IMG/VR virus record: IMGVR_UViG_3300047319_000532
Direction: 5' to 3' (one strand)
Origin: a virus
Length of the DNA stretch: 64,000 nucleotides
Position numbers and translations under genes: made by a program. Below, one piece after another: positions 3,371 to 62,286 of this stretch. The notes under the pieces are model-generated. The model had not been told where the DNA came from, ran no database searches, and saw only the letters and a list, made by a program, of their open reading frames with translations. The stretch's first letter is position 1. Every line of letters begins with the position of its first letter.

Positions 3371-3795
3371 AAGAGACATCTCGCAAAATCTACATAAAGC
3401 TCAAATGCAGCGGTCGCATCGCCAGCATACAACGCAAGATTTGTGCGGCTATTCGCGACTATGGCGGAGGAGCTAACAGCCCCGGGCTGACAGCCAGACT
3501 GGCCTCGCTGGCCACCGGCGTCGATCTGCAGTCTGTCACCCAGCGTTTTGTCGAACTGCGGCGCATGGGGCTTATAGAGCCTGCGTATTTCAGCCCCGGC
3601 AAGACGGCGCTCGGCAAGACCAGCAACGAGTGCAGCTGGTACAGGCTGTCAAAAAACCCGCCGCCTAAGCACGCCATCTCGGAAGCTGAATTTTTGGAAT
3701 TGAGCGAAATGAACAACGAAGAGCGCCAGCAGGCCGCCGTTCGCGCTGGCGAAGTGGTGCTGGCCGCAGCGCCAGACTGGGAGCCCCGCCTGTGA
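3367..3795 (+). CDS. hypothetical MarR/winged-helix-like protein
   Basis: ATGA overlap with the previous gene. LTARLASLATGVDLQSVTQRFVELRRMGLIEP resembles a wHTH. Confidence 0.6.
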   Translation: MKETSRKIYIKLKCSGRIASIQRKICAAIRDYGGGANSPGLTARLASLATGVDLQSVTQRFVELRRMGLIEPAYFSPGKTALGKTSNECSWYRLSKNPPPKHAISEAEFLELSEMNNEERQQAAVRAGEVVLAAAPDWEPRL

Positions 3796-6917: not shown

Positions 6918-7484
6918 ATGGGCTGGCTTTACATGCAATCGCTGGGCGGCTTCAAGAGCCCCAAGGCGTACCTCGACAATCAATTCACCTGCGGCGGCGT
7001 CAACAAGGTGCTGAAGTCGGCCCTGTGCGGCATGCGGACCTATTACGCCGCGGTCCAACACGGCGAAGGCGAGGTCTTCGCGGTGGTCTGCCTTGTGCAA
7101 TACAACAAGCGCGCCAAGGACGGCTACGTCTTCGGCTACAAGGACATGGACGAGACCATGGGCCCTTGCGAGGCCGACTGCCCGGCGGCCATCCTCGATC
7201 TGCTGACGCCAACTGAGTCGGCCTACGCGATCGCGTGGCGCGAGCGGTGCCGCAAGCATCTCGATCGGCCCAAGACGAAGGTCGGCGACATCGTCGTGTT
7301 CGAAGCTCCCATCCGATTCTCCAATGGCGCTCTTCACGCAGCCTTCAAGCTGATTGCGCCGTGGTGGAATCAGAAGCTGGTGCGCTTGCAAGCGATCGAC
7401 GGCGGAGGCGGTCTATACCGAATCCCCAACTGGAAAAAGCGCAGTTTCAGGATTGTTGGAGAGAATGAGCATGCGAAAGTTTGA
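6918..7484 (+). CDS. conserved-looking phage protein, function unknown
   Basis: ATG 6918 inside track ORF 6792..7484. Contains the motif FGYKDMDETMGPCEADCPAAILDLLTP. Confidence 0.65.
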   Translation: MGWLYMQSLGGFKSPKAYLDNQFTCGGVNKVLKSALCGMRTYYAAVQHGEGEVFAVVCLVQYNKRAKDGYVFGYKDMDETMGPCEADCPAAILDLLTPTESAYAIAWRERCRKHLDRPKTKVGDIVVFEAPIRFSNGALHAAFKLIAPWWNQKLVRLQAIDGGGGLYRIPNWKKRSFRIVGENEHAKV

Positions 7485-7650
7485 AGTCACCGTCGAAGTC
7501 ACGCGCGAGGGGGCCCTGCGCCCTTTCCGCGTCTACCACAACGTCAACGCTGAATCGTTCGAACACGCCCGGCAGAAGGTACAGGCGCGCGTCTACAAGC
7601 ACGCCACCCACAAATTCATCCGCTTCATTGATTGGAAGAGAGACGCATGA
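7471..7650 (+). CDS. hypothetical protein
   Basis: ATG 7471 (alternative 7465) after ggagaga, inside track ORF 7354..7650. Confidence 0.55.
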   Translation: MRKFEVTVEVTREGALRPFRVYHNVNAESFEHARQKVQARVYKHATHKFIRFIDWKRDA

Positions 7651-7961
7651 AACGCCGTTATTTGACGAAGACCCAGAAGGCCGTGCTCAAGAGCATGGCC
7701 GATAACGGCGGGCGCGCGGTGATCGCCACCGGCACCCGGTGGAGCAGCTTCAGCCCCGGCGTCTGCCGCATGTTCGGTCAAGGGGTGCACTGCCTGCTTC
7801 ACAATCGTTGGGTCACCAGCCGTGGCCAGAATCAGGTCGGCTACTATGCTTGGACGACCGAAGGCCGTCTGGCGCATGAGCGCGGCTGGTTCATCCCGAA
7901 GGTCTGGGCCGAGCCCTATTGGTCCGATGAAAAACCCCTGCCTGACGAAGGAGTCGTTTGA
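7647..7961 (+). CDS. hypothetical protein
   Basis: ATGA overlap at 7647-7650, inside track ORF 7632..7961. Confidence 0.6.
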   Translation: MKRRYLTKTQKAVLKSMADNGGRAVIATGTRWSSFSPGVCRMFGQGVHCLLHNRWVTSRGQNQVGYYAWTTEGRLAHERGWFIPKVWAEPYWSDEKPLPDEGVV

Positions 7962-8194
7962 TGGCTATCCCGCACAAGACTATCGACATCATCGGCGCGA
8001 CCGCCTGCGCCGCCTCGCTGCGCTTCAAGGCGCATGACGCCTACGCCGTGCTCGGCGAAGACCTGAACGATCTGTGCGCCCTCGTGGTGCGCCTGCGCGC
8101 AGCCGTTGACGCCACCGGCGAGAGTTTCGAATGGTCCGATCGGCTGACCAAGATCCTCGACGAAGCCTTGCAATCCAACCTGTCGGAGAAATGA
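7961..8194 (+). CDS. hypothetical protein
   Basis: ATG 7961 after RBS gaaggag (7947-7953). The track lists 7958 (TTG). Confidence 0.6.
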   Translation: MAIPHKTIDIIGATACAASLRFKAHDAYAVLGEDLNDLCALVVRLRAAVDATGESFEWSDRLTKILDEALQSNLSEK

Positions 8195-8436
8195 ACGTGA
8201 TCAAGAAAAAAGACCGTGACGCCCGGCTGGTCGAGCTGACCGACATCACGACCAGTCGGCTCGATGAGCTGCGCGTGATCAGCAGCAGGCTGATCGACGC
8301 CCTGCGCAAGTCGCGTGACGCCGTCAATTATCTGGCGCTGCAGACGGAGCGCACGCACGAAAGTTCGGCCCACTGGGCGCGCGTGGCCGCCGACATCGAC
8401 GCGCTAATTGCCGAGGCGCTTAAAAATATCGATTGA
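8191..8436 (+). CDS. hypothetical coiled-coil-like protein
   Basis: ATGA overlap at 8191, inside track ORF 8131..8436. Confidence 0.6.
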   Translation: MNVIKKKDRDARLVELTDITTSRLDELRVISSRLIDALRKSRDAVNYLALQTERTHESSAHWARVAADIDALIAEALKNID

Positions 8437-8470
8437 CGGGCGTAATACGCCTGTCGTAGTGTATGGACAT
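8433..8470 (+). promoter_or_regulatory. sigma70-like promoter, conserved class I element (second copy)
   Basis: TTGACG(8433-8438)-18 bp-TAGTGT(8457-8462). TTGACGGGCGTAATACGCCTGTCGTAGTGTATGGACAT is nearly identical to the 6004 element. Confidence 0.6.
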
Positions 8471-8509
8471 CGGGGGCGGCAGTCGCCCCCGTACTGAGGA
8501 GCGCCCACC

Positions 8510-8746
8510 ATGGTCACCGTCTACACCGGCACCTATGAAATCCAGACCAAATTGTTCCGCACGCAGCGGTCTTTCCAATTCAAGACGCTCGAGCATCGCA
8601 TGGAGTTTGAGCGGCTGGCCGCGGCGATCGGCGTCAAGCGCGTCGCCTCCAACATCGATCACACCATGACCGCCGCCGAGGCGTTCGACGAGCTGGTCGA
8701 AGAGAAGCTGCGCTGCGACGACATCGCCCTTGGACGCATCGGCTGA
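8510..8746 (+). CDS. hypothetical protein
   Basis: 78 aa, RBS tgaggagcgcccaccATG. Confidence 0.65.
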   Translation: MVTVYTGTYEIQTKLFRTQRSFQFKTLEHRMEFERLAAAIGVKRVASNIDHTMTAAEAFDELVEEKLRCDDIALGRIG

Positions 8747-8829
8747 TGCGCCCGTTCTGGGTGGACGCCCTTTACGTCTTCGGCGCGACGATCGTCATGC
8801 TCGTCTACATCAATCTGGTTGGACCTTGA
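8746..8829 (+). CDS. tiny hydrophobic peptide (27 aa, one TM)
   Basis: TGATG stop/start coupling with the previous gene. MRPFWVDALYVFGATIVMLVYINLVGP. Below the track's ORF size cut-off; read by hand. Confidence 0.4.
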   Translation: MRPFWVDALYVFGATIVMLVYINLVGP

Positions 8830-8913
8830 GGTCGAAATGGTCCCACGGGGCCATAGTCGGGTATCTTTCCCGGCCTGATGAAAATCAGCCAGAATCAAAA
8901 AAGGAACACACGC

Positions 8914-9051
8914 ATGAACAAGATCATCGTTGGCGTCATTCTGGTCGCCTTGGGCGTCCTTGGCTATGTCGCCATGGCCAAGGCTGGCAGCTGCACCACC
9001 ACCTGCCAGACCTACGGCAACCAGCGCAGCTGCTACACCACCTGCTATTGA
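8914..9051 (+). CDS. secreted Cys-rich mini-protein (45-aa precursor, ~21-aa mature part)
   Basis: Hand-read ORF MNKIIVGVILVALGVLGYVAMAKA|GSCTTTCQTYGNQRSCYTTCY. It has a signal-peptide-like N-terminus with an A-x-A site, twin CxxxC motifs and RBS aaggaacacacgcATG. A terminator hairpin follows directly. Confidence 0.55.
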   Translation: MNKIIVGVILVALGVLGYVAMAKAGSCTTTCQTYGNQRSCYTTCY

Positions 9052-9057
9052 CCGGGC

Positions 9058-9080
9058 CGGGGGCTCGCGCCCCCGTTTCC
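9058..9080 (+). terminator. rho-independent terminator
   Basis: CGGGGGC(9058-9064)/GCCCCCG(9069-9075), 4-nt loop, then TTTCC. Confidence 0.6.
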
Positions 9081-9103
9081 CTCCCAACCGAAGGAGAACG
9101 AGG

Positions 9104-9229
9104 ATGGATCTGGAGGAATACGGCCCACTTTGCTTTATCGCGCTGGTCGCGTTCGGCATGTGGTTTTTCTGGCCTGATCGGGACGCGCCTGCGCCGACGC
9201 CGATCTTCACTTATGGAGCCAGAAAATGA
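9104..9229 (+). CDS. small membrane peptide (41 aa, one TM)
   Basis: RBS gaaggagaacgaggATG. MDLEEYGPLCFIALVAFGMWFFWPDRD.... Tail part of track ORF 8930..9229. Confidence 0.5.
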   Translation: MDLEEYGPLCFIALVAFGMWFFWPDRDAPAPTPIFTYGARK

Positions 9230-9441
9230 GCTGGCGGCCCGAAGTGAAAGTTGGCAACCACTGGGAGAAAAACAGCGTGGTGTTCGCCACCAAAGAGGAG
9301 GCGGCGGAAAACGCCCGCAATCTATTCAATAGCTGGACGACGGCGGATGACTATCGCGCCGTCGAAACTGACGAACCCGTAAATTACCAAATGGTTAACG
9401 GGCGCGCGCGCCTTGTCCCCTATCCTGAAGGAGAAAAGTAA
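9226..9441 (+). CDS. hypothetical protein
   Basis: 71 aa, ATGA overlap. Confidence 0.65.
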   Translation: MSWRPEVKVGNHWEKNSVVFATKEEAAENARNLFNSWTTADDYRAVETDEPVNYQMVNGRARLVPYPEGEK

Positions 9442-9752
9442 TGCATGAAGCCGTCCCCCCGATTTTCTACGGCAAGCTGTCCAAGATCGATCGGATTCGC
9501 TCGCTCACCTTGGGCGTGTTCATCACGCAGGCTTTTGACGGCGAGACGCCAGATTTCATGATTAACACTTCGATGCTGGCGATGGTCGCCGCCATGCACC
9601 ACAAGCTGAGCCCCCAGCACGCTCATGAGCCGATGGCTGTGGATGACGTCCTGAAGGAGTTTTGCGATTGCGTCAGGGCAACGCTTGGCAACCTCGAGGA
9701 GCATTGCGCCCACATGCACGCCATGAAGGAGGATCCGGCCAATGTCAGCTGA
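9441..9752 (+). CDS. hypothetical protein, paralog A of a tandem pair
   Basis: 103 aa. PPIFYGKLSKIDRIR...ETPDFMINTSMLAMVAAM aligns with the next ORF. Confidence 0.65.
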   Translation: MHEAVPPIFYGKLSKIDRIRSLTLGVFITQAFDGETPDFMINTSMLAMVAAMHHKLSPQHAHEPMAVDDVLKEFCDCVRATLGNLEEHCAHMHAMKEDPANVS

Positions 9753-10023
9753 GCTTTTCCCCTTTCCGCCAGTGTTTTACGGCGAGCCTGATGAGCACGA
9801 GAAGACTCGCATCACCATGGACGCGCATGTGTTCGGCTCCAGCATGTTCAACGAGACGCCCGAGCATGTGCTCAACGTCGCGATCATGCTGATGGTCATG
9901 GCCACCAGCGGCCTCGACGAAAAGCAGGACGTCGCCGACGTGATCAGCAAGGCCGCCGAGTGCGTCACCAAGTCTTATGATTCCTTTCTGGCGTGGCAGG
10001 CGGCGGGGGAGCCTGTGTCGTGA
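9742..10023 (+). CDS. hypothetical protein, paralog B of a tandem pair
   Basis: 93 aa. PPVFYGEPDEHEKTR...ETPEHVLNVAIMLMVMAT. Confidence 0.65.
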   Translation: MSAELFPFPPVFYGEPDEHEKTRITMDAHVFGSSMFNETPEHVLNVAIMLMVMATSGLDEKQDVADVISKAAECVTKSYDSFLAWQAAGEPVS

Positions 10024-10313
10024 TAGACCTGCGCAAGCCCCGGGAAGGCGCGCCACAGCTGCCGTTCGAGCTGGTTCGGGACGCCTGCGTGCTGCTCTAC
10101 GGGCCCGGCTGGCAGTCGGCGCTGGCGCGCGAGCTGCAGGTGTCTACGCGCACGGTGCATCGGTGGCTGTGGGGCAAGGGGGTCATGCCGATCGGGCTCG
10201 GCGAGCACCTGCAGCACAAATGCAGGGGACGCCGTCGGCAGCTGGATGTTGTGATCGCCATGCTGGCCCAACACGAGATGCAGTGTCTGGACTTTGACCG
10301 GTCGCGGGTCTAA
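10020..10313 (+). CDS. helix-turn-helix DNA-binding protein
   Basis: GTGA overlap start at 10020 (track alternative ATG 9993). HTH-like ALARELQVSTRTVHRWLWGKG. Last gene before a hairpin terminator. Confidence 0.6.
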   Translation: MIDLRKPREGAPQLPFELVRDACVLLYGPGWQSALARELQVSTRTVHRWLWGKGVMPIGLGEHLQHKCRGRRRQLDVVIAMLAQHEMQCLDFDRSRV

Positions 10314-10335
10314 TCTGGGCCCCCTCAAACGAAGA

Positions 10336-10358
10336 CCCCCCGGCTTTTGACCGGGGGG
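10336..10358 (+). terminator. GC hairpin terminator (no T-tract)
   Basis: CCCCCCGG(10336-10343)/CCGGGGGG(10351-10358), loop CTTTTGA. Confidence 0.45.
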
Positions 10359-10463
10359 CCCACGTACCGGGACACAGACGCACAAGCACACCGAAGGAGA
10401 ACTAAGGAAGCTCGCGAGATAGGATCAACCAGCCCGCGTTGAATCTAACTTGCCTCCCTTACA

Positions 10464-11249
10464 ATGTCAACGATGCTTAACCTGCTCTTTGCAGGCGCAG
10501 CGACCTATTGTCTGCAGGAGGCAGGAGTGGCGGTTTACAAGGCCGAGCTGGTCAAAAAGATATTGCGCATGGCGGAGAGCGAGCACGACGGCGAGGCCGC
10601 CGCGGCAATGCGTAAACTGACAGCCATGGCGAAGGAGCAGGGCCACAACCTTGATGAGATGATGGCGCACGTCTACGGCAATGGTTCGGCCAGCGAAAGC
10701 TCGAGGCCCAGCGGCAGGTATCGGGATCCTTTCGAGGATCTGTTCCGGCAGGCCCGGCGCGCGCAGGCGGCGGCGGCAGAAGCCCGGCGCGAGCGTGAAG
10801 AGGCCGAGGCTCAGGCGCAGCGCGATCGGGAGCAACGGGCTCGAGAGCGCGAGGCGTCCAACCGGGCCGAGCGCCGGGCGGCGGAATCAGACGCGCGCCG
10901 GGCCCGCACCGGCGGCTTCAACCCGGGCGGCTTCAATCCGGGCGGCTTCAAATGGGATTCCAGCCCATGGGCGTTTCAGGGCGAGCCGCCGCCATGGGCC
11001 AACAAGGGCGAGAGCGCGGGCGGCAGGCGGTTTTTCGAGCCGTTGCTGATGTCGGTGCAGGAGATGGTCGATCTGTGGGGCATCGGGCCGCTGACGCCTT
11101 GGGAGCAAAGCTTCGTCACCGACATTTTGTCACGCGGCATGAACTACCGGACGACGCCTGCGCAGGATGACGTGTTGCGCAAGATCCATGAAAAGTACCA
11201 GCGGCACGCCACACGCAACGGCGACGAAAAAGGCTTCTGGGGGAGATAA
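10464..11249 (+). CDS. DUF2786-like protein with Arg/Glu coiled coil and GGFNPGG repeats
   Basis: KKILRMAESEHDGEAAAAMRKLTAMAKEQGHNL resembles the DUF2786 signature. Followed by an RE-rich helix, GGFNPGGFNPGGF and a C-terminal globular part. No SD sequence ahead of the ATG. Confidence 0.7.
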   Translation: MSTMLNLLFAGAATYCLQEAGVAVYKAELVKKILRMAESEHDGEAAAAMRKLTAMAKEQGHNLDEMMAHVYGNGSASESSRPSGRYRDPFEDLFRQARRAQAAAAEARREREEAEAQAQRDREQRAREREASNRAERRAAESDARRARTGGFNPGGFNPGGFKWDSSPWAFQGEPPPWANKGESAGGRRFFEPLLMSVQEMVDLWGIGPLTPWEQSFVTDILSRGMNYRTTPAQDDVLRKIHEKYQRHATRNGDEKGFWGR

Positions 11250-11254
11250 AAGAA

Positions 11255-11288
11255 GGGCCCACGCTCGGGAGAGTGCGGGGCCCTTTTT
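11255..11288 (+). terminator. rho-independent terminator
   Basis: GGGCCC...GGGGCCC imperfect stem followed by TTTTT (11284-11288). Confidence 0.75.
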
Positions 11289-11315
11289 AGTTCACACGCC
11301 TACCAATCGTGAAAG

Positions 11316-14941: not shown

Positions 14942-16057
14942 TCAGGCGGCGACCAGATCGAGCAGCTTGCCCGCGGCGCGCTCGATCGAGACGCGATCGT
15001 CCTGCCACTGGACGCCCTTGGCGGCGGCGGTCAGGCCGGTCACCACATCCCACACCGATTCCATCGGGCGGCCCTCTTCAGCCTCGTGGGAAGCCTGCGC
15101 GCGGGCGATCAGGCTCGAGGTGAACTTGCGCGACTTCAGAAACTCCTCGACGTTGTCCACCTTCTTATTCTGCGCGGCGATCAGTTTGGCCTCGACCGGG
15201 CTGGCCGCGCTGTGGCGATAGGTCTCGAGGACCGGCAGCGCCTGCTCGAGCCAACGATCGGGAGCGCCCGAGGTGTGGCGGATGGCGATGCGGCTGACGT
15301 CCTGCGCGCCCCAGACGATGCGGTTGCAGCAGGCGTAATCGAACAAGAAGGCGGTGATTTCGAGGATGCCAGCGCCGACTTCCGAGTTGCGGACGAAGAA
15401 ACCACGAGCCAGCGAGCCCTGACGACCACCGCGGCGGTTCGGCAGCACGATGCGGTTTTCCTCGTCGGCGAGGAACACGAACATATCGCGATCGCCCGCA
15501 TAGAGCGTGGTGTTGGCCTTGGTCACGTCGATGCGCTTGCCAAACTCGCCCGGCACGCGCCAGTCGCCGTCGATGCCATTGCCGAAGTTGGCCTTGAGCG
15601 CATCGGCGATCGTGGTGTTCCACACGCGGCCATAGTTCGGGCCAGTGGCGGCGTCGAGCGAGAAGCCCTCGTCGCCGCGGCGGAGGAGCAGGCCGACGTC
15701 GGCGACGTCGCGGGTGACCTTGAGGCCGAAGTTGACGCAGTCAGCAGCCAAAGACGGGTGTAGGGTGCGAAGGTAGCCAGCAGGCGCGCCAGCGAGGTTG
15801 GCCAGCTGGCCGAAGGCGAAGTGGGTCGGCGCGGCGGCGTTGCCCTTCTCGCCGACGATGTGCAGGCCGTTGTCGCCGTCCGGCTCGCAGGTGATCGAGC
15901 GGCTCGAGACGACCTTGCCCGCCGAGCGGACGCGCTGGTTGTAGCAATGTTCAGCCAGATCGTTGAGGTTGACGAAGCGTTCGTCGTTCGGGCGCGAAGC
16001 CCACTGGCGGGAAGCGGCGGTCAGGGTGGAGGTGTTCGCGAGAGCCATGATTTTCAT
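14942..16057 (-). CDS. DUF932 (phage/plasmid-like protein, TIGR03299-type)
   Basis: 371 aa. Blocks YGRVWNTTIADAL, TLYAGDRDMFVFL, LARGFFVRNSEVG and FLFDYACCNRIVWG match my memory of the DUF932 family. Confidence 0.8.
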   Translation of the reverse strand: MKIMALANTSTLTAASRQWASRPNDERFVNLNDLAEHCYNQRVRSAGKVVSSRSITCEPDGDNGLHIVGEKGNAAAPTHFAFGQLANLAGAPAGYLRTLHPSLAADCVNFGLKVTRDVADVGLLLRRGDEGFSLDAATGPNYGRVWNTTIADALKANFGNGIDGDWRVPGEFGKRIDVTKANTTLYAGDRDMFVFLADEENRIVLPNRRGGRQGSLARGFFVRNSEVGAGILEITAFLFDYACCNRIVWGAQDVSRIAIRHTSGAPDRWLEQALPVLETYRHSAASPVEAKLIAAQNKKVDNVEEFLKSRKFTSSLIARAQASHEAEEGRPMESVWDVVTGLTAAAKGVQWQDDRVSIERAAGKLLDLVAA

Positions 16058-19921: not shown

Positions 19922-20025
19922 CCATGACTGACGCCCTGTGGCCGGTGCTGGCTGTTATCGTGCTGTTCAGTATCGGCGTTGGGCTCGAGGCGGCATACCA
20001 TGCCATTAAGAAGGCCCTGAAGTGA
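19918..20025 (+). CDS. tiny membrane peptide (35 aa)
   Basis: Hand-read MTMTDALWPVLAVIVLFSIGVGLEAAYHAIKKALK. ATGA overlap upstream and GTGA overlap with the TerL start. Confidence 0.45.
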   Translation: MTMTDALWPVLAVIVLFSIGVGLEAAYHAIKKALK

Positions 20026-58113: not shown

Positions 58114-59121
58114 ATGGTCAACAGCTTCACCTACACCACGAACAAAAACATCATAAAGCCAGCGTTCAACAACACTGGCTGGGATGTGCCCCTCAATCAG
58201 AATTTTGACATGATCGATGCTGCGCTTGGTGCGACGCAGGCTATGAATCTCCAAGGAAACCTTCTTACCGATATTCTTCTCACAAAGACGTGGCCACTAG
58301 ATCCGGGCGGGGTTCTTGCTAACGCGAGTTGCATCCCCATGAGATTGGCGCTGACTGGCGCAGTGACTCAGAACACGTACATCCACGTCCCAGCAGCGAC
58401 CAATGGCCTTTGGGTTGTGTCAAATAACACTACATCAGCAAGTGGCTTTAACGTATTTTTTGGCGGATCTGCGACCCAGATATTGGTTTCGAGAAACCAG
58501 TCTACGCTAATATGGTGTGACGGCGGCGGGGCGCTTCTGCTTGGCTCTTCTGGCATCACTTCCGCAACTTTTGCAGTCGGAGACTACAAGCACTCCGCGG
58601 CTCCAGCTGCACAAAGTGGGTGGCTTCTGTGCAACGGTCAGGCAGTTCCTCGCACAACGTACAGCGCATTGTTTGCGGCCATCGGCGGCTATTACGGCGT
58701 TGGCGACGGCTCGACCACTTTCAACGTCCCGAATCTGATTGGTCGCGTGCTGTCTCATGCTGACCAGAATCAAGGCGTCACGCCGGGCGTTAATTTCGCT
58801 CAAGCTGGCGGTGTTTCAGCTGTCACTTTGGACATCAGCCAGATCCCTTACCATGACCATGGCGGCGGCAACCATCTTCATGGCGCATATCAAGCCGCCC
58901 ACCAGCATGGCATCGGAGGAATCCTCTCCAACCAAAACCAAGCGCCGGGGGCTCAGTACGGTCCCAGCTGGCAGTTCCAGACTGTTTACTCTGACTGGCA
59001 GCAGCCAGCTGTCACTATCGGCTACAGCGGCAACACCATAGGCGGTCAAGGCAGCAACGGCGGCCACACCAACGTGCAGCCGTCGCTTGGCTGTTACATT
59101 TTCATCTACGCAGGCGTGTGA
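58114..59121 (+). CDS. tail fibre/receptor-binding protein with phage Tail Collar domain
   Basis: 335 aa. SGWLLCNGQAVPRTTYSALFAAIGGYYGVGDGSTTFNVPNLIGR is the Tail Collar signature. His/Gly-rich C-terminus. Confidence 0.8.
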   Translation: MVNSFTYTTNKNIIKPAFNNTGWDVPLNQNFDMIDAALGATQAMNLQGNLLTDILLTKTWPLDPGGVLANASCIPMRLALTGAVTQNTYIHVPAATNGLWVVSNNTTSASGFNVFFGGSATQILVSRNQSTLIWCDGGGALLLGSSGITSATFAVGDYKHSAAPAAQSGWLLCNGQAVPRTTYSALFAAIGGYYGVGDGSTTFNVPNLIGRVLSHADQNQGVTPGVNFAQAGGVSAVTLDISQIPYHDHGGGNHLHGAYQAAHQHGIGGILSNQNQAPGAQYGPSWQFQTVYSDWQQPAVTIGYSGNTIGGQGSNGGHTNVQPSLGCYIFIYAGV

Positions 59122-59542
59122 ACGGGGCGGCGTAGGCGATCGAGCTGTGATGCTCGCAGTAGGGCGGATCATATGTGGTCACGCCGCAATAGCGCATACT
59201 GAGCTTGACGCCCTCGATCGGCCACCGGCATGACGTGTTTTTCAGCTCATAGATCCCCAAGCCTTCCGGCGGCGGCGGAGGCGGCTCTGGCGCTTTTGGC
59301 ACCTTCGGCGGTCTCGGCGGCCTCGGCGGCGGGCGCTTGAACGTCAGGGGCCGGTGGCCGCGAGTGATCGCCACCCTGCCCCGCAGACGATGGACAACCC
59401 CCGAGACTGCGCTGCGCGTCATGCCAAGCTCGCCAGCAATGATGCCAGTGCTTTTGCCCTCGTTCCACAGCTCGATGACTTTCAGGCTTCTCTCGGGGAT
59501 TGGCTCGGGTTCGAGCGTCAATAGGACAGCGTACCGGCCCAA
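59102..59542 (-). CDS. gcrA: GcrA-family cell-cycle regulator homologue
   Basis: N-terminal VIELWNEGKSTGIIAGELGMTRSAVSGVVHRL, Pro-rich linker, C-terminal CRWPIEG...YCGVTTYDPPYCEHHSSIAY. This is the same architecture as alphaproteobacterial GcrA. Confidence 0.8.
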   Translation of the reverse strand: MGRYAVLLTLEPEPIPERSLKVIELWNEGKSTGIIAGELGMTRSAVSGVVHRLRGRVAITRGHRPLTFKRPPPRPPRPPKVPKAPEPPPPPPEGLGIYELKNTSCRWPIEGVKLSMRYCGVTTYDPPYCEHHSSIAYAAPFTRLRR

Positions 59543-59904
59543 GGAGCCGCCTTCGAAAAGTGGTCGGTAGGCATCCGCGGCGCAGGATCGAACAGCAGCG
59601 AGTGATCAAACACCAGCGGCGCGACTACCTTGACCTTGGCCAGCTTGTATTCGGCAGGCTTCTGCGCAGTGATGGCGGGCTCGACGGGCTCGGGCATGGG
59701 CGCAGGCTCGACATAGCGCCGGTGGTGGCGACGGTGCCATACCTGCAGCCCGGGGGCCGCTGCATGGAACACAGGGGCCGCGTGGCGCACGTGGACGCCG
59801 CGGCTCATGCCATAGAGGCTGAGCTGCCCATGGTTGTGGTGCCGGGCCTGCGCCCCGCTCGAAATGAGGACTGTGGCGAAAACGACTAGAGTGATGCGGC
59901 GCAT
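59518..59904 (-). CDS. secreted His-rich protein
   Basis: 128 aa. Signal peptide MRRITLVVFATVLISSGAQA, then RHHNHG...HRRHHRR. RBS gaaggagaaatcATG. Confidence 0.6.
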   Translation of the reverse strand: MRRITLVVFATVLISSGAQARHHNHGQLSLYGMSRGVHVRHAAPVFHAAAPGLQVWHRRHHRRYVEPAPMPEPVEPAITAQKPAEYKLAKVKVVAPLVFDHSLLFDPAPRMPTDHFSKAAPWAGTLSY

Positions 59905-59914
59905 GATTTCTCCT

Positions 59915-59998
59915 TCATTGCGTGACTAGGATGATGATGGCGATCAGGATTACGATGGGGGCGACGATGAAGCCGCAGATGAAGCCGATCCAGAACAT
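59915..59998 (-). CDS. tiny membrane peptide (27 aa), tentative
   Basis: Hand-read MFWIGFICGFIVAPIVILIAIIILVTQ, RBS gagagg. It is the tail of track ORF 59915..60130 and overlaps the 3' end of 59950..60225. Confidence 0.35.
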   Translation of the reverse strand: MFWIGFICGFIVAPIVILIAIIILVTQ

Positions 59999-60225
59999 TT
60001 CAGGGCCTCTCGGACGTCGTGGGCAAACTGGTTGTTGATCTTGGCCAGTTCGATCATGGCGTGCCGACGGTTGTAGCAGAAACAATCGTTGCCGTGGTGT
60101 CGTCCGGCGTTGGTCGGGATTAGCATGCAATCGGAGCTGGCGCAGGGTGTGAGCTTACTGATGGCGGCGTCTCGAGCCCACAAGGCTACGGTGATCCAGT
60201 CAGTATGGTCAGGGGCCTGCGCCAT
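59950..60225 (-). CDS. hypothetical Cys-containing protein
   Basis: 91-aa track ORF. Confidence 0.5.
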   Translation of the reverse strand: MAQAPDHTDWITVALWARDAAISKLTPCASSDCMLIPTNAGRHHGNDCFCYNRRHAMIELAKINNQFAHDVREALKCSGSASSAASSSPPS

Positions 60226-60234
60226 CTTTGCCTC

Positions 60235-60741
60235 CTACGCACGGCGATCGGGGCGCACAAAGGCCACGACGCGGTTCATGGTATAGACGCGCCGGTTGAC
60301 GTTATGATTCTGGTTGCCGCCGAGCCCCACGATGCGGCCCATCTTGTCGAAGCCCGCAAAGATCGTGACGTGGTGCCTCATGACGACCAGATCACCCGGG
60401 ACCGGGTTGGTCACACGTTGCCCATCATAAAGCTTATCGATCGCCGCGAGCGAATCATTATGCTTATATCCGGCCTCCGACATAATCTTATTGGTGAAGG
60501 CGGCGCACCACTTTCCGTTGAAGCCGGTGACATTGCCGCGGCCTACGTAGTGTTCTGCGACCTCGAGGAGGCCGGTGCGGCCCATGACCATGCGTGGCGC
60601 GAACAGGGCTGCAAAAGCCTCGAAGGGATTTGAGAACGCAGACGCTGCTGGAGGGGCTGCGTGATGGCGATGAAGGTGGGGCCGGGCATACGCCTGCGAT
60701 GCCGCCATGATGATGGCGACAGCCAACAAAATTTTCTTCAC
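60235..60741 (-). CDS. secreted TIGR02594/CHAP-like peptidoglycan hydrolase
   Basis: GTG 60741 six nt after GGAG (track TTG 60753). Signal peptide VKKILLAVAIIMAASQAYA, then His-rich RPHLHRHH. NGKWCAAFTNKIM...PGDLVVMRHHVTIFAG...GLGGNQNHNV matches the TIGR02594 pattern. Confidence 0.75.
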   Translation of the reverse strand: MKKILLAVAIIMAASQAYARPHLHRHHAAPPAASAFSNPFEAFAALFAPRMVMGRTGLLEVAEHYVGRGNVTGFNGKWCAAFTNKIMSEAGYKHNDSLAAIDKLYDGQRVTNPVPGDLVVMRHHVTIFAGFDKMGRIVGLGGNQNHNVNRRVYTMNRVVAFVRPDRRA

Positions 60742-60811
60742 GATGCACTCCAAGGGATTTTATAGGGGAGGGGAAGGCCGCTGGGGAAGGCTCCCAGCGG
60801 CCCCGGTCAGG

Positions 60812-61180
60812 TTAGTGACCCGCGACGCCGCCACCGACAGCGATCACGCTCGAGCCGCCCGACGTGGTCGAACCGGCGATGCCATTGCCCGAAGACGCGG
60901 CAAGGGTGCTGGAGGTGGACGAAGCCGTGCCAGCTCCGCCACCGCCCGCGATGGACGGACCGAAGAAGCCGCCAACGGCGACGCCGCCACCACCGGCAAC
61001 GCCGGTCGCGCCAGCGGTCGTGCCGCCGATCGCGGAGGCATGACCCAGCGAGCCCGTCACGGTCGTGGAGTGCGAGTTGGTGATGACGGCCCCGCCGCCA
61101 ACGCCGAACGCAGTGACCTGCGCGAAAGCCGGAGCCGCGAACAGAGCCAGCGCGCTGGCGAGAACAAGGATCTTTTTCAT
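60812..61180 (-). CDS. secreted Gly/Ser/Thr/Ala-rich protein
   Basis: ATG 61180 inside track ORF 60812..61249. Signal peptide MKKILVLASALALFAAPAFA, the remainder is low-complexity Gly-rich. Confidence 0.6.
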   Translation of the reverse strand: MKKILVLASALALFAAPAFAQVTAFGVGGGAVITNSHSTTVTGSLGHASAIGGTTAGATGVAGGGGVAVGGFFGPSIAGGGGAGTASSTSSTLAASSGNGIAGSTTSGGSSVIAVGGGVAGH

Positions 61181-61245
61181 GCGTATTTTCCTTAACTTCA
61201 CGTGAATTACCGGGGAGACCGCCCCGGCGCGGATTCCTTTCAAGA

Positions 61246-61490
61246 CCACTGGCCAACCTGAAACCGCGTAGGAAGGGTCGGCCAGTGGCTTGCTTGCTTT
61301 CGTGCTAGACCCGTTCAGTAAAATCCAACACGCCTCGGCTCTCCACAGAGGGACGCAAGTTCGAAACTCATGGCCGCCGATCTGGGAGGGGTCAAGCCCT
61401 TCTCCCTACGCGATCGGCGGCCAGCTTGCTTTCGTGGCAGCTGATGAGCTAACCCGCCACGCCCGCCAGTTGCAAAAGCGGGGACGCAAG
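61246..61490. repeat. tandem pair of ~130-nt structured non-coding units
   Basis: Each unit has a long GC hairpin (61246-61288; 61372-61422), then CTTGCTTTCGTG (61293-61304; 61425-61436), ~45 variable nt and GGGACGCAAG (61350-61359; 61481-61490). ACGCAAG can pair with CTTG..CGT. Confidence 0.5.
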
Positions 61491-61491
61491 A

Positions 61492-62286
61492 TTAGTTGGA
61501 GGCCATCTTCACGCAGACGCCCGCGTCAGCGGACTTGCGCGCCCCCTTTTCGCCGCAAGAGGCGACGACATACTGGTGCCCTTTCTTGTCGAAGTAAGCG
61601 GCGGCCTTCAGATCGGTCGCCTTCAGCTCACGAGACTTTTCGCCGGGGACCGGGCCATGGTACTCGCCCTTGAAGACCGGGTGGCCATAGGGCTCGGCGA
61701 CGGCGACCGTGGCATAGCGACCGACGCGGCAGCGGACGCCGCCAGCGGTCATCGAGACGGCCAGCTCATCGTCCATACAGAGCGTCTGCAACGCGGCTTC
61801 GCGCTGTCCAAAAGCCCACAAGGTACGGGCATTGAGCCTTTTGTTGCAGGGGCCATCCTGCCAAGGAAAACCCAGCGCGCCGCCGCCTCCCACAGCGGCA
61901 CCGCCCAGCGAGACGGAGCCGTTGCAGGACTCGATGCCCGCGGCGCTCATGCCGGGCGCAAACACCGCCGGGGACTGGCCGGTGGTGGTCGAGTTGAAAG
62001 TGTTGGTGTTGGCCGCGCCAGACTGGTTGGCGTTGACCGAACGGACGCCGACATTCTGGCTCGAATTGATCCGCGAATTGACGTTGGAGCGCGAGGCCGA
62101 ATTGGAGTTGGAGTTTGCCCCGGAGAACGCGGTGTTGCGATTGTTCTGGACGGGGTCGGCGACAGCAGCGGAGCTGGAGCGCGAGTTGGAGATACCGGTT
62201 CCGACGCCGATGGCGTTCTGCGCCAGCGAAGGGGTGACGCCGATCGCGATCATCGCGAAAGCGGTAGCAATGCTCTTAACTTTCAT
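61492..62286 (-). CDS. secreted Asn/Ser-rich protein with Cys-containing C-terminal domain
   Basis: 264 aa. Signal peptide MKVKSIATAFAMIAIGVTPSLA, an N/S-rich ~100-aa region, then a globular part with 6 Cys. Confidence 0.65.
   Translation of the reverse strand: MKVKSIATAFAMIAIGVTPSLAQNAIGVGTGISNSRSSSAAVADPVQNNRNTAFSGANSNSNSASRSNVNSRINSSQNVGVRSVNANQSGAANTNTFNSTTTGQSPAVFAPGMSAAGIESCNGSVSLGGAAVGGGGALGFPWQDGPCNKRLNARTLWAFGQREAALQTLCMDDELAVSMTAGGVRCRVGRYATVAVAEPYGHPVFKGEYHGPVPGEKSRELKATDLKAAAYFDKKGHQYVVASCGEKGARKSADAGVCVKMASN

What the first reader, a model, noticed from the sequence alone, without database searches (positions are those of the whole stretch)
8746..9229. Secreted 4-Cys mini-peptide flanked by two tiny membrane peptides in the early operon
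Three unannotated mini-ORFs lie in a row. The first is a 27-aa TM peptide (8746..8829, TGATG-coupled). The second is a 45-aa precursor, MNKIIVGVILVALGVLGYVAMAKA-GSCTTTCQTYGNQRSCYTTCY (8914..9051), with a signal peptide, an A-x-A cleavage site and a 21-aa Thr/Tyr-rich mature part. That mature part has twin CxxxC motifs (a hairpin-with-two-disulfides pattern) and its own terminator (9058-9080). The third is a 41-aa TM peptide (9104..9229) with a strong RBS. An exported disulfide peptide made early by a phage of a Gram-negative host could be a communication signal, a bacteriocin-like or exclusion factor, or an envelope modulator. I know of no described equivalent.
Basis: seen in the sequence. Interest (0 to 1): 0.65.

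Follow-up and report, generated by a model that had tools for sequence, protein, structure and literature searches.

The report
Phage-encoded secreted two-disulfide hairpin mini-peptide
A 45-codon phage gene encodes a signal peptide plus a 21-residue, four-cysteine peptide that belongs to a previously undescribed family found so far only in bacteriophages, predicted to fold into a disulfide-stapled beta-hairpin in the host cell envelope; its function is unknown, and the two neighbouring tiny membrane-peptide genes are unrelated to it.

Summary
In detail: all three mini-ORFs are at the stated coordinates, and each scores as coding above all 179 wrong-frame ORFs.

The 45-aa ORF (8914..9051) is a real, conserved gene. 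About 39 unnamed relatives were found, with no significant Pfam, NCBIfam, PHROGs, PDB or BFVD match. In 31 aligned members:
- the signal peptide is divergent but always has [A/V]-x-A 2-3 residues before Cys1;
- the core x2-C-x3-C-x8-C-x3-C-aromatic-stop is indel-free.

All eight long-contig contexts are phage DNA, of at least five genome types. A motif scan of 185,579 reference prokaryotic genomes gave no true hit.

AlphaFold2 predicts strand 27-34, a G35-N36 turn and strand 37-44. That places the Cys pairs 27/44 and 31/40 opposite each other. This is the framework of the animal peptide arenicin-3, but the phage peptides are polar and nearly uncharged.

The gene is a stand-alone cassette: strong ribosome-binding site, downstream GC hairpin, no conserved neighbour.

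The "trio" is coincidental. The 27-aa ORF is a separate conserved micro-protein, and the 41-aa ORF has only positional analogues.

The likeliest role is a periplasmic ligand of a host envelope target, for example superinfection exclusion. This is inferred, not shown.

The parts
8914..9051 (+). Precursor gene of the secreted four-Cys mini-peptide (45 codons plus TGA)
   Evidence: ORF present. Coding score +12.3 bits, above all 179 null ORFs. Member of a family of about 39 proteins. Syntenic homologues in related phages.
8914..8985 (+). Sec-type signal peptide, 24 codons: MNK / IIVGVILVALGVLGYV / AMAKA, predicted cleavage after A-K-A24
   Evidence: 31 of 31 aligned family members have [A/V]-x-A 2-3 residues before Cys1, although the signal peptides are otherwise divergent. 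Some h-regions are only 12-14 residues, too short for a membrane anchor. AlphaFold2 gives a helix at 4-15. No signal-peptide predictor was available, so cleavage is inferred.
8986..9048 (+). Mature peptide GSCTTTCQTYGNQRSCYTTCY (21 aa; Cys27, 31, 40, 44; G35-N36 turn; C-terminal Tyr)
   Evidence: The Cys positions are invariant and there are no indels in 31 members. AlphaFold2 predicts strands 27-34 and 37-44 with a 2-residue turn, pLDDT about 86 (residues 31-40) and 77 (41-45). The best PDB match is arenicin-3 over 21/21 columns, rmsd 1.4 A, with a non-significant E-value. Scaffold codons have pN/pS 0.30.
8901..8905 (+). Shine-Dalgarno sequence AAGGA, 8 nt before the ATG
   Evidence: Read from the sequence. 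Every one of 11 family genes with DNA in hand has GGAG or AGGA 6-9 nt upstream.
8837..8889 (+). Three small stem-loops (8837-8854, 8856-8874, 8875-8889) between the 27-aa ORF and the peptide gene
   Evidence: RNA fold of 8825-8915, -25.9 kcal/mol, z = -1.5, not significant. Relatives also carry one or two hairpins upstream of the gene. Function not shown.
9058..9075 (+). GC-rich stem-loop CGGGGGC-UCGC-GCCCCCG followed by UUUCCC: weak intrinsic terminator or mRNA 3'-end stabiliser
   Evidence: A stable GC stem-loop lies within about 5-35 nt after the stop codon in all 11 family genes examined. Some have clear T-tracts (L029, L018/L033).
8746..8829 (+). Neighbour, not part of the cassette: conserved 27-aa single-helix membrane micro-protein, translationally coupled (TGATG) to the 78-aa gene upstream
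   Evidence: Coding score +11.2 bits. A 52%-identical homologue (MRPFWQDALLFLAGALAVLGYINFV...) lies in L018 at 13712-13816, 3.6 kb from that phage's Cys-peptide gene. The same TGATGCGCC junction occurs in the window, L018 and L021.
9104..9229 (+). Neighbour, not part of the cassette: 41-aa hydrophobic mini-ORF coupled (ATGA) to the 71-aa gene downstream
   Evidence: Coding score +10.7 bits and a strong SD. No sequence homologue was found. In L018 an unrelated 41-aa membrane ORF (15518-15643) is coupled in the same way to the homologue of the 71-aa gene. In L021 a 244-aa gene occupies that position.

Best explanation
The 45-codon gene at 8914..9051 is a self-contained accessory cassette of a phage of an alphaproteobacterial (diderm) host.

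Proposed biogenesis:
1. The gene is translated from its own strong ribosome-binding site.
2. The Sec pathway exports the precursor, and signal peptidase I cuts it after Ala24.
3. The released 21-residue peptide, GSCTTTCQTYGNQRSCYTTCY, is oxidised in the periplasm to two nested disulfides (Cys27-Cys44 and Cys31-Cys40).

The product is a rigid two-stranded beta-hairpin with a two-residue Gly-Asn turn. It has a conserved tip (T-Y-G-N-Q-T/R), a conserved Thr/cystine face, and a variable opposite face.

The peptide is polar and almost uncharged, so it is not a membrane-disrupting peptide. It most likely acts as a small, protease-resistant ligand or inhibitor of a conserved host envelope component. 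The effect would be to change the infected cell's envelope to the phage's advantage. Superinfection exclusion, receptor masking, or inhibition of a periplasmic enzyme are the most probable roles, by analogy with other small exported phage proteins.

Shown here: the gene is real, conserved, phage-restricted and stand-alone, and the signal-peptide and Cys architecture hold across the family.

Predicted: the hairpin fold, the disulfide pairing and the cleavage site.

Inferred only: the target and the biological role.

My confidence is about 0.85 for the biogenesis and structure, and about 0.35-0.4 for the envelope-ligand or exclusion role. The overall figure of 0.5 is for the whole statement.
For: Coding:
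- The codon score exceeds 179 of 179 null ORFs.

Family:
- An exhaustive phmmer search of 1.84 billion representatives gave 10 hits (best E = 2e-8), all 42-67 aa with the same architecture.
- A profile search gave 39 proteins.
- The 31-member alignment has no indels in the mature part, invariant Cys, and at least 90% conservation of A(-1), T29 and G35. It always ends with Cys4 plus one residue and then stop; that residue is aromatic in 30 of 31 (Leu in P0005).
- [A/V]-x-A is present in 31 of 31. The mature parts contain no Asp, Glu or Lys, and net charge is 0 to +2.

Fold:
- AlphaFold2 gives strands 27-34 and 37-44 with a G35-N36 turn.
- The Cys pairs are symmetric about the turn (i + j = 71) and fall on non-hydrogen-bonded positions (reasoned from the sequence).
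- The top PDB match is arenicin-3. Its published framework, C3-C20 and C7-C16 with a turn at residues 11-12 in 21 residues, is identical (PMC7311426).

Phage restriction and mobility:
- Eight of eight long contexts are phage contigs, of at least five architectures.
- There were 9 IMG/VR hits.
- There were no true hits in 185,579 reference genomes.
- The same mature peptide occurs behind unrelated signal peptides (L032 versus L033). The same signal peptide occurs with a swapped 3' half (L026 versus L033).

Cassette:
- An SD upstream and a GC hairpin downstream in 11 of 11 genes. No neighbour gene is conserved across contexts.

Selection:
- Scaffold pN/pS is 0.30, against about 1.0 for the surface positions.

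Host:
- A GcrA homologue at 59102-59542.
- The nearest terminases of cultured phages are from Paracoccus, Roseobacter, Rhizobium and Erythrobacter phages.
- This phage encodes several other proteins whose N-termini look like Sec signal peptides by eye.

Precedent:
- T4 Spackle is a phage-encoded protein with a cleaved signal peptide. It acts in the periplasm by 1:1 binding of a target (PMC7650644).
Against: - There is no expression, cleavage, disulfide or activity data. All family members are metagenomic and the host is not identified.
- No signal-peptide predictor could be run.
- In the window's copy the hydrophobic stretch is 16-19 residues long, so an uncleaved anchor is conceivable for this member.
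- AlphaFold2 confidence is moderate (mean pLDDT 68.7). The structural match to arenicin-3 is not statistically significant (E = 4.8), as expected for a 21-residue fold.
- DsbA tends to join consecutive cysteines, so nested pairing may need isomerisation.
- Nothing in the data points to a particular target. The exclusion role rests on analogy and on the prior that most characterised small exported phage proteins do this.
- The same very stable fold would suit an extracellular role equally well.
Confidence: 0.5

Rival explanations
1. Extracellular effector. The peptide accumulates in the periplasm and is released at lysis (or leaks out). It then acts on other cells, either as a phage-phage or phage-host communication signal or as a bacteriocin-like or anti-competitor peptide.
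For: - A 21-residue hairpin with two disulfides is the kind of very stable scaffold typical of extracellular peptides. It has the exact Cys framework of arenicin-3.
- Different phages from the same sample series carry an identical mature peptide behind unrelated signal peptides (L032 versus L033), as expected for a shared signal or a shared target.
- The surface positions vary at pN/pS of about 1, which is compatible with an arms race.
Against: - No receptor or immunity gene is conserved next to it in any of 8 contexts. Arbitrium aimP always sits next to aimR, and bacteriocins sit next to immunity genes.
- The peptides have no Asp, Glu or Lys, net charge 0 to +2, and almost no aliphatic residues. 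They therefore lack the cationic amphipathic character that makes arenicin and tachyplesin membrane-active.
- No dedicated route across the outer membrane is evident.
Confidence: 0.2
2. Uncleaved membrane-anchored micro-protein. The N-terminal hydrophobic segment stays in the inner membrane and displays the disulfide hairpin on the periplasmic side. There it modulates a membrane sensor, transporter or the Sec/Bam machinery, as the 47-aa MgrB does with PhoQ (MgrB facts are from my own knowledge).
For: - In the window's copy the hydrophobic run I4-A22 is up to 19 residues. The best 15-residue window has a mean Kyte-Doolittle value of 2.73, which is long enough to span a membrane.
- The gene lies between two other membrane mini-ORFs.
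Against: - Family-wide conservation of [A/V]-x-A at a fixed 2-3 residues before Cys1 in 31 of 31 members, while the rest of the N-terminal segment is not conserved. This is the signature of a cleaved signal peptide, not of a functional membrane helix.
- Several members have h-regions of only 12-14 residues (P0020, P0026, P0028, P0029).
- The adjacency to the membrane mini-ORFs is not conserved.
Confidence: 0.1
3. Precursor of a post-translationally modified peptide (RiPP). The Thr/Ser-rich, Cys-rich core would be converted to thioether (lanthionine-type) rings or glycosylated rather than disulfide-bonded.
For: The core has 6 Thr, 2 Ser and 4 Cys in 21 residues. N-x-S/T sequons are frequent in the family (for example G-N-Q-T).
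Against: - No dehydratase, cyclase, radical-SAM or glycosyltransferase gene lies next to the gene in any of eight different phage contexts. The neighbours are small unrelated ORFs.
- The N-terminal part is a classical Sec signal with a signal-peptidase site, not a RiPP leader.
- The Cys positions are exactly those needed for cross-strand disulfides in a 2-residue-turn hairpin.
Confidence: 0.03
4. Lipoprotein. Cleavage would occur directly before Cys27 by signal peptidase II, giving a lipid-anchored 19-aa peptide like the small exclusion lipoproteins of other phages (T5 Llp, Cor; from my own knowledge).
For: A Cys lies 3 residues after the A-x-A. Small phage lipoproteins are known exclusion factors.
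Against: - The residues before Cys1 do not form a lipobox and are not conserved. Position -1 is T, S, Q, N, Y or A; position -2 is G, R, Y, Q or S; position -3 is the Ala of the A-x-A site; and position -4 is often charged or polar (K, H, E, Q).
- The window's K-A-G-S-C fails the PROSITE-type lipobox rule (my reading of the rule).
Confidence: 0.02
5. Not a functional gene: a chance ORF in GC-rich intergenic DNA.
For: It is very short, and high-GC genomes carry many spurious ORFs. Two long overlapping ORFs exist on other frames.
Against: - The codon score is above all null ORFs.
- The amino-acid sequence is conserved with synonymous change across phages whose flanking genes are 35-60% diverged.
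- No indel or stop occurs in 31 members.
Confidence: 0.02

Closest known systems
Arenicin-3, and the tachyplesin / polyphemusin / gomesin class of animal beta-hairpin antimicrobial peptides
   Same: - 21 residues.
- Cys at mature positions 3, 7, 16 and 20.
- A two-residue turn at positions 11-12 (N-G in arenicin-3, G-N here).
- Nested C1-C4 and C2-C3 pairing, shown for arenicin-3 and predicted here.
- Top Foldseek match over all 21 columns, rmsd 1.4 A, 33% identity (PMC7311426).
   Different: - No detectable homology; the structural E-value of 4.8 is not significant.
- Arenicin-3 is of animal origin. The literature search lists such worm hairpin peptides as BRICHOS-related; arenicin-3's own precursor was not checked.
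- It is strongly cationic and amphipathic (4 Arg; Trp, Val and Tyr) and is membrane-active.
- The phage peptides have net charge 0 to +2, no Asp, Glu or Lys, and are rich in Thr, Asn, Gln and Tyr. A membrane-lytic mechanism is therefore unlikely.
T4 Spackle (gp61.3), and other small exported phage exclusion proteins (T4 Imm, T5 Llp, phi80 Cor)
   Same: - Phage-encoded, with a cleaved N-terminal signal peptide.
- Acts in the periplasm of the infected cell by binding a target 1:1 (PMC7650644).
- An accessory gene, not part of the virion.
   Different: - Spackle is a 75-residue helical protein with one non-essential Cys pair.
- There is no sequence or fold similarity. Only weak signal-peptide-level hits to PF25676 and phrog_1586 were found.
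- No target is known for the present family.
Thanatin (21-residue insect beta-hairpin, one disulfide)
   Same: - The same size and hairpin shape.
- It is reported to act on a periplasmic protein target rather than only on membranes. The Lpt-binding mechanism is from my own knowledge; a review was listed but not read.
- It is a model for how a small hairpin could block an envelope machine by strand addition.
   Different: It is an animal peptide, cationic, with a single disulfide and an unrelated sequence. It is applied from outside, not made by a virus inside the cell.
Arbitrium AimP (phage communication peptide)
   Same: A phage-encoded small precursor with an N-terminal secretion signal, processed to a short mature peptide (from my own knowledge).
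   Different: - AimP works in phages of Gram-positive hosts. It matures to a linear 6-mer without cysteines, and its gene is always next to the receptor gene aimR.
- Here there is no conserved neighbour, the mature peptide is a 21-residue folded hairpin, and the host is diderm.
MgrB-type small membrane regulators
   Same: About 45 aa, with an N-terminal hydrophobic segment and a periplasmic C-terminal part carrying functionally important cysteines (from my own knowledge).
   Different: MgrB is bacterial, is not cleaved, and has 2 periplasmic Cys. The present family has a conserved signal-peptidase motif and non-conserved hydrophobic segments.
Plant alpha-hairpinins (CX3C-Xn-CX3C) and pediocin-like class IIa bacteriocins (YGNGV box)
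   Same: - Alpha-hairpinins have twin CX3C motifs with nested disulfides.
- Pediocin-like bacteriocins have a Y-G-N turn motif next to a disulfide.
- Both resemblances are from my own knowledge.
   Different: - Alpha-hairpinins are helix-loop-helix with longer loops. Here the fold is predicted to be beta, and the sequence is rich in beta-branched Thr.
- Pediocin-like peptides have YGNGVxCxxxxC, a single N-terminal disulfide and a long C-terminal membrane domain, and come from Gram-positive bacteria.
- No Pfam hit to either group.

Membership tests
Sec / signal peptidase I secreted precursor | Positively charged n-region, hydrophobic h-region of about 10-16 residues, and small residues at -3 and -1 before the cleavage site | tested here: met
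   Window copy: MNK / IIVGVILVALGVLGYV / AMAKA|G. In the family, 31 of 31 have [A/V]-x-A 2-3 residues before Cys1, a Lys or Arg lies near the N-terminus in most, and signal peptides are 19-31 residues from the likely start. No SignalP-type predictor was run.
Sec / signal peptidase I secreted precursor | Actual cleavage and periplasmic location of the product | not testable with these tools
   Needs mass spectrometry or N-terminal sequencing. The predicted products are 2335.86 Da (21 aa, two disulfides) or 2534.99 Da (23 aa).
Bacterial lipoprotein (signal peptidase II) | Lipobox [LVI][ASTVI][GAS]C directly before the first Cys | tested here: not met
   Position -1 is T, S, Q, N, Y or A; position -2 is G, R, Y, Q or S; position -3 is the Ala of the A-x-A site, preceded by a polar or charged residue.
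Beta-hairpin antimicrobial peptides (arenicin / tachyplesin class) | Two antiparallel strands joined by a tight turn and stapled by nested disulfides | tested here: met
   Met by prediction only. AlphaFold2 gives E27-34, turn 35-36 and E37-44. The Cys framework is identical to arenicin-3.
Beta-hairpin antimicrobial peptides (arenicin / tachyplesin class) | Strongly cationic, amphipathic surface | tested here: not met
   Net charge is 0 to +2, and aliphatic residues are almost absent. The composition is dominated by Thr, Ser, Asn, Gln and Tyr in 29 distinct mature sequences.
Beta-hairpin antimicrobial peptides (arenicin / tachyplesin class) | Antimicrobial or membrane-permeabilising activity | not testable with these tools
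   Needs the synthetic peptide and MIC or permeabilisation assays.
Arbitrium-type phage communication system | Peptide gene adjacent to a cognate intracellular receptor gene (AimR-like) | tested here: not met
   The neighbours differ in all eight contexts and are small unrelated ORFs without Pfam domains.
RiPP precursor | Modifying enzyme gene(s) in the same cluster, and a leader peptide recognised by them | tested here: not met
   No such enzyme domain lies within 10 kb in the contexts examined. The N-terminal part is a Sec signal.
Phage 'moron' (autonomous accessory cassette) | A gene inserted between conserved genes, with its own promoter and terminator and variable presence and position among related phages | tested here: inconclusive
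   - Variable position among related phages: the gene lies right after PolA in L018 and L026, but after the 78-aa/TM pair in the window and L021.
- It forms part of small opposite-strand islets in L028 and L029.
- A downstream GC hairpin is present in 11 of 11 genes.
- The synonymous distance of the cassette is lower than that of the flanking genes.
- No sigma-70-like promoter lies upstream in the window, and promoters of this host and phage are unknown.
Superinfection-exclusion proteins (functional class) | Expression protects the cell against secondary infection | not testable with these tools
   Needs efficiency-of-plating assays with cells expressing the gene.
Any curated protein family (Pfam-A, NCBIfam, PHROGs) or solved structure | Significant profile or sequence match | tested here: not met
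   Only sub-threshold, signal-peptide-level hits were found for all 31 members. PDB profile and sequence searches were negative. Foldseek against PDB and BFVD gave nothing at E <= 0.001.

The most novel reading that the evidence does not exclude
Tailed phages of Gram-negative bacteria encode their own disulfide-stapled, defensin-like mini-hairpins that work outside the producing cell. On release at lysis, the 21-residue peptide would act on neighbouring bacteria or on rival phages, as a diffusible signal or as a receptor-blocking or antibacterial agent. That would make it the first virus-encoded counterpart of the animal beta-hairpin host-defence peptides, and a new class of phage 'public goods'. 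The variable face of the hairpin would then be a specificity determinant evolving in an arms race.
Probability: 0.2. Interest if true: 0.85.

Novelty: new variant of a known kind. Interest (0 to 1): 0.62.

Why it matters
Small exported phage proteins are among the least understood parts of phage genomes. The few that have been studied (Spackle, Imm, Llp, Cor) control who can infect an already infected cell.

This family is unusually tractable:
- The active part is only 21 residues, can be made chemically, and has a predicted rigid fold.
- It has a clearly conserved tip and face that can be mutated.
- It is present in several unrelated phage lineages, which implies a conserved and probably important host envelope target.

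Finding that target could reveal a new weak point of the alphaproteobacterial envelope, or a new exclusion mechanism.

A naturally evolved, uncharged, two-disulfide hairpin that folds in the bacterial periplasm would also be a useful scaffold for peptide engineering.

The work also shows that a 45-codon ORF absent from the curated libraries searched (Pfam, NCBIfam, PHROGs) can be validated purely by exhaustive search of metagenomic proteins.

Tried and rejected
1. **Close relatives for dN/dS.** Fourteen contigs carrying the exact peptide (L001-L014) are 99.97-100% identical to the window over up to 10 kb. They are clonal and uninformative.

2. **Relatives in deposited phages.**
   - megablast and blastn of 7000-12000 found nothing.
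   - tblastn with the primase found only a 27% partial hit.
   - tblastn with the 45-aa peptide found nothing, but this search is insensitive for so short a query.
   - The nearest deposited phage by terminase (MW202675.1, 58%) has no family member by regex in its first 50 kb.

3. **Anchor-gene searches.**
   - The 71-aa gene and the primase found nothing in IMG/VR.
   - The only primase homologue (58%) and the only close PolA homologue (47%) sit on contigs too short to reach the region.

4. The search for related loci rejected the 45-aa query and the family alignment as too short or too variable. I replaced it with back-translated motif scans.

5. **Reference-genome scan.** The two hits (Clostridia and Ruminococcus MAGs) are false. 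They have an in-frame stop inside the motif and no signal peptide.

6. **The trio as one system.** Rejected on synteny.

7. **Positive selection.** The surface positions show pN/pS of about 1. They were chosen after seeing that they vary, and the sequences are short and near saturation. I make no claim of positive selection.

8. **Hairpins as a repeated phage-specific element.** GGGGS-N3-9-SCCCC occurs at three sites in the window (5 overlapping matches against 3.6 expected), which is not significant.

9. **Known RNAs.** No Rfam family and no tRNA in the window.

10. **Virion lysozyme as a Spackle-like target.** No lysozyme or transglycosylase domain was detected in the large virion proteins. 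Only a weak CHAP-like secreted protein was found, at 60235-60753.

11. **Literature.** The motif strings (TYGNQ, YGNQT, CNTYGN and others) occur in no relevant paper. General searches for small secreted Cys-rich phage peptides found nothing pertinent.
Full report
**1. The observation**

- The 27-aa ORF (8746..8829) starts at the A of the stop codon of a 78-aa ORF (CGGCTGATGCGCC).
- The 45-aa ORF (8914..9051) has AAGGA 8 nt upstream. It encodes MNKIIVGVILVALGVLGYVAMAKA-GSCTTTCQTYGNQRSCYTTCY.
- A 7-bp GC stem with a UCGC loop (9058-9075) follows, and then UUUCCC.
- The 41-aa ORF (9104..9229) has AAGGAG 7 nt upstream and overlaps (ATGA) the next gene, 9226..9441.

I trained a codon model on 12 long genes of the same genome. 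Each mini-ORF scores 10.7-12.3 bits above the best of the five other frames. None of 179 wrong-frame ORFs of 25-60 aa inside long genes reaches these values (null maximum 8.8). The 12 extra codons of the alternative 57-aa start (8878) are not coding-like. The two long overlapping ORFs on other frames are not supported as genes: 8730..9332(+) scores about 71 bits below the best alternative frame, and 8659..9210(-) only marginally above it.

**2. The genome and host**

The window is most of a phage genome of about 67 kb.
- On the + strand lie a PD-(D/E)XK nuclease, an MT-A70 methylase, a family-A DNA polymerase (3792-5741), a run of small ORFs, a primase (11316-14312), the large terminase (20022-21650), the portal (23722-26400), and tail and fibre genes.
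- The finding lies in the replication module. 'Early' expression is therefore plausible but only inferred.
- The phage has no nucleotide relatives among 50,697 deposited phages.
- Its terminase is closest to an uncultured spring-water phage (58%). Next come phages of Paracoccus, Roseobacter, Aeromonas, Rhizobium and Erythrobacter at 31-40%.
- It encodes a GcrA cell-cycle regulator homologue (59102-59542, minus strand; E = 6e-16). To my knowledge this protein is confined to Alphaproteobacteria and their phages.
- GC content is about 61%.

A diderm alphaproteobacterial host, with an oxidising periplasm, is therefore likely.

**3. The 45-aa ORF belongs to a real, undescribed family**

Contigs carrying the identical peptide are clonal copies of the same phage and say nothing about selection. 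An exhaustive phmmer search of 1.84 billion representative proteins gave 10 hits (best E = 2e-8). All are 42-67 aa with the same build. A profile search of the 5.8-billion-protein collection then gave 39 proteins. All are metagenomic. None carries a meaningful name (one has a generic automatic label), and none has a Pfam domain.

In an alignment of 31 four-Cys members:
- The mature part has no insertion or deletion.
- Cys27, 31, 40 and 44 are invariant.
- A(-1), T29 and G35 are at least 90% conserved.
- Every protein ends exactly one residue after Cys4. That residue is Tyr, Trp or Phe in 30 of 31 (Leu in P0005).
- The N-terminal parts are highly divergent. Even so, 31 of 31 keep [A/V]-x-A 2-3 residues before Cys1. 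Several have hydrophobic cores of only 12-14 residues.

This is the pattern of a cleaved Sec signal peptide, not of a functional membrane helix or a lipobox.

The 29 distinct mature sequences contain no Asp, Glu or Lys, have net charge 0 to +2, and consist mostly of Thr, Ser, Asn, Gln and Tyr.

Some relatives have two four-Cys modules (P0010). Others have two or three copies of a two-Cys unit, C-x-T-Y-G-N-Q-T-x-C (P0033, P0036, P0037, P0039, P0040, L041, L042). The disulfide-closed TYGNQT tip is therefore the basic unit.

No member gives a significant hit in Pfam, NCBIfam or PHROGs or in the PDB by sequence. The motif strings occur in no relevant paper.

**4. Structure**

The cysteines are symmetric about G35-N36 (27+44 = 31+40 = 35+36 = 71). 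In a hairpin with a two-residue turn, both Cys pairs therefore face each other on non-hydrogen-bonded positions, which is where cross-strand disulfides fit. This is my reasoning from the sequence.

AlphaFold2 with the 31-sequence alignment independently predicts a helix at 4-15 (the signal peptide), a strand at 27-34, the turn at 35-36, and a strand at 37-44. Block pLDDT is 86 (residues 31-40) and 77 (residues 41-45), with a mean of 68.7.

Foldseek finds nothing significant, which is unavoidable for a 21-residue fold. Its first PDB match is arenicin-3, aligned over all 21 residues at 1.4 A and 33% identity. The published arenicin-3 sequence is GFCWYVCVYRNGVRVCYRRCN, with Cys3-Cys20, Cys7-Cys16 and a turn at Asn11/Gly12 (PMC7311426). 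It has the same length, the same Cys positions and the same turn position as the predicted mature phage peptide. The chemistry is opposite: arenicin is cationic and amphipathic, while the phage peptide is polar and nearly neutral.

Mapping conservation onto the hairpin:
- The Cys face is conserved: C27, T29, C31, T33 opposite T/R38, C40, T42, C44. The tip is also conserved, as are T30, Y34 and the C-terminal aromatic residue.
- The rest of the other face is variable.
- Scaffold codons have pN/pS of 0.30. The remaining ten positions have about 1.0, against 0.35-0.5 for neighbouring genes at the same divergence.
- The variable set was chosen post hoc, so this shows relaxed or diversifying evolution, not proven positive selection.

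**5. Distribution and genomic behaviour**

All eight long contexts I could fetch are phage contigs, of at least five genome types:
- the window's own clade, with the gene either just after PolA (L018-L020, L026) or after the 78-aa gene (L021/L022);
- a DUF5906-primase phage (L023/L024);
- a Toprim-primase / DEAD-helicase phage (L025);
- an SSB/ParB/YqaJ phage (L027);
- a NusG/Dam phage (L028);
- a capsid/terminase/ThyX phage carrying a two-Cys repeat member (L029).

A back-translated motif of about 42 bits found 7 true copies in IMG/VR. In 185,579 reference prokaryotic genomes it found only two false hits, each with an in-frame stop. A tip motif found two more IMG/VR members. A regex finds exactly one copy per phage locus.

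No neighbouring gene is conserved across contexts. Every gene with DNA in hand (11 of 11) has a good Shine-Dalgarno sequence and a stable GC stem-loop within about 5-35 nt after the stop. Most also have a hairpin upstream. In L028 and L029 the gene lies in a short islet of opposite orientation to its surroundings.

The gene is mosaic:
- L032 and L033 have identical mature peptides behind unrelated signal peptides.
- L026 and L033 share the signal peptide (97% nucleotide identity), but the 3' half of the mature part and the downstream region are swapped.

Synonymous distance of the cassette among three PolA-clade phages (0.29-0.39) is lower than that of their flanking genes (0.5-0.86). This hints at more recent exchange, although the gene is short.

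Together this describes a mobile, self-contained accessory cassette. It is moron-like, but no promoter has been shown.

**6. The two flanking mini-ORFs are separate matters**

The 27-aa ORF has a clear homologue in L018 (MRPFWQDALLFLAGALAVLGYINFV..., 52% over 25 residues). That homologue is 3.6 kb from that phage's Cys-peptide gene and lies behind an unrelated 104-aa gene. A 36-aa hydrophobic ORF occupies the same coupled position after the 78-aa homologue in L021. All three share the junction TGATGCGCC. The 27-aa ORF is therefore a real, conserved membrane micro-protein that is translationally coupled to whatever gene precedes it.

The 41-aa ORF has no sequence homologue. In L018 an unrelated 41-aa hydrophobic ORF is coupled by ATGA to the homologue of the 71-aa gene, 5.5 kb from the Cys-peptide gene. 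In L021 a 244-aa gene occupies that position.

The 'three in a row' arrangement is thus an accident of this genome and of L021, not a system.

**7. How it most likely works**

The chain best supported by the evidence is:
1. Sec export of the precursor.
2. Cleavage after A-K-A24.
3. Oxidation to nested disulfides.
4. A rigid 21-residue hairpin in the periplasm.

Its composition excludes an arenicin-like membrane attack. Several features point to a conserved host envelope target that the hairpin binds, perhaps by strand addition or by inserting its tip:
- strict conservation of the tip and of one face;
- spread across unrelated phages;
- absence of a partner gene;
- an identical mature peptide in different phages.

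Most characterised small exported phage proteins protect the infected cell against further infection or against premature wall damage. An example is T4 Spackle, which has a 22-residue cleaved signal and inhibits the virion lysozyme 1:1 in the periplasm (PMC7650644). I therefore rank superinfection exclusion or envelope modulation first, at about 0.35-0.4.

The rivals, in order:
- an extracellular signal or bacteriocin-like role after lysis (0.2);
- an uncleaved MgrB-like membrane regulator (0.1);
- a RiPP precursor (0.03);
- a lipoprotein (0.02);
- a non-gene (0.02).

None of the functional options is tested by anything available here.

**8. Comparison and novelty**

In shape, the peptide resembles the animal two-disulfide beta-hairpin peptides. 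In biology, it most resembles the small Sec-exported accessory proteins of phages. It is a member of neither group: the defining cationic amphipathicity is absent, and there is no homology to any exclusion protein. It matches no family in the curated libraries searched (Pfam, NCBIfam, PHROGs). I rate it a new variant of known kinds, namely an undescribed phage-restricted family with a distinctive architecture and unknown function.

**9. Verdict**

The core interpretation, a secreted four-Cys mini-peptide that is conserved and undescribed, is supported. The idea of a three-gene unit is rejected, and the function remains open. Interest is 0.62. The family is a well-defined, experimentally very tractable new phage peptide family, but its importance depends on a target that is not yet known.

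Noticed in passing
window 8746..8829; L018 13712-13816; L021 9797-9907: The 27-aa ORF is itself a conserved phage membrane micro-protein (MRPFW.DAL...YIN.V). It always starts at a TGATGCGCC junction overlapping the stop of the preceding gene, although that preceding gene differs between phages (78 aa in the window, 104 aa in L018).
   Followed up: partly
window 9441..9752 and 9742..10023; L018 15950-16234 and 16231-16521: There are two adjacent paralogous genes (103 and 93 aa) sharing a PP[IV]FYG...[ML]...V.A motif. The tandem pair is also present in the related phage L018, while L021 has a single copy. No Pfam match; function unknown.
   Followed up: partly
window 9226..9441; L021 10171-10905: The 71-aa gene (MSW[RK]PEVK...VFATKEEA...) is conserved in L018 and L021. 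The N-terminus of the 244-aa protein that precedes it in L021 is a distant paralogue of the same domain (26% over 57 residues to the L018 homologue; 24% over 62 to the window's 71-aa protein).
   Followed up: no
window 59102..59542 (-): A phage-encoded homologue of the alphaproteobacterial cell-cycle regulator GcrA (PF07750, E = 6e-16). It is a host marker and a possible host-takeover gene.
   Followed up: partly
window 59518..62286 (-): A minus-strand cluster encodes at least four proteins whose N-termini look like Sec signal peptides (judged by eye; no predictor was run). They are a 128-aa His-rich protein, a 172-aa protein with a weak CHAP domain (possible exported wall hydrolase or endolysin), a 145-aa Gly-rich protein and a 264-aa Ser/Asn-rich protein. 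This phage appears to export several proteins to the envelope.
   Followed up: partly
window 8472-8490 and 38072-38087: Two further strong GC hairpins of the same style as the one after the peptide gene: GGGGGC-GGCAGTC-GCCCCC before the 78-aa gene, and GGGGCC-GAAA-GGCCCC before the gene at 38110. The count is not above chance, but the positions are intergenic.
   Followed up: partly
L032 and L033 (IMGVR_UViG_3300046559_000446, 138 kb): One 138-kb viral contig carries two family genes with identical mature peptides but unrelated signal peptides. The size is about twice that of the related 67-kb phages, so it may be a chimeric or concatenated assembly of two related phages.
   Followed up: no
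L020 1-4400 (ERZ25039534 contig_13962): In one related contig the phage region (truncated DUF2800 nuclease gene) abuts a DDE transposase and bacterial-looking genes (beta-lactamase fold, Rieske ring-hydroxylating dioxygenase, cupin). This is either a misassembly or a clue to the host or to integration.
   Followed up: no
L018/L026/L032/L033, about 30-70 nt upstream of the peptide gene: A conserved upstream non-coding element (GTGGGGG...CCCCCAC hairpin, then CGGAC-ACTTTC-GTCCG hairpin, then GGAGAACA) travels with the gene in several phages, even where the signal-peptide coding part differs. The window has a comparable small hairpin with a CTTT-containing loop at 8856-8874. It may be a regulatory or RNA-processing element.
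   Followed up: partly
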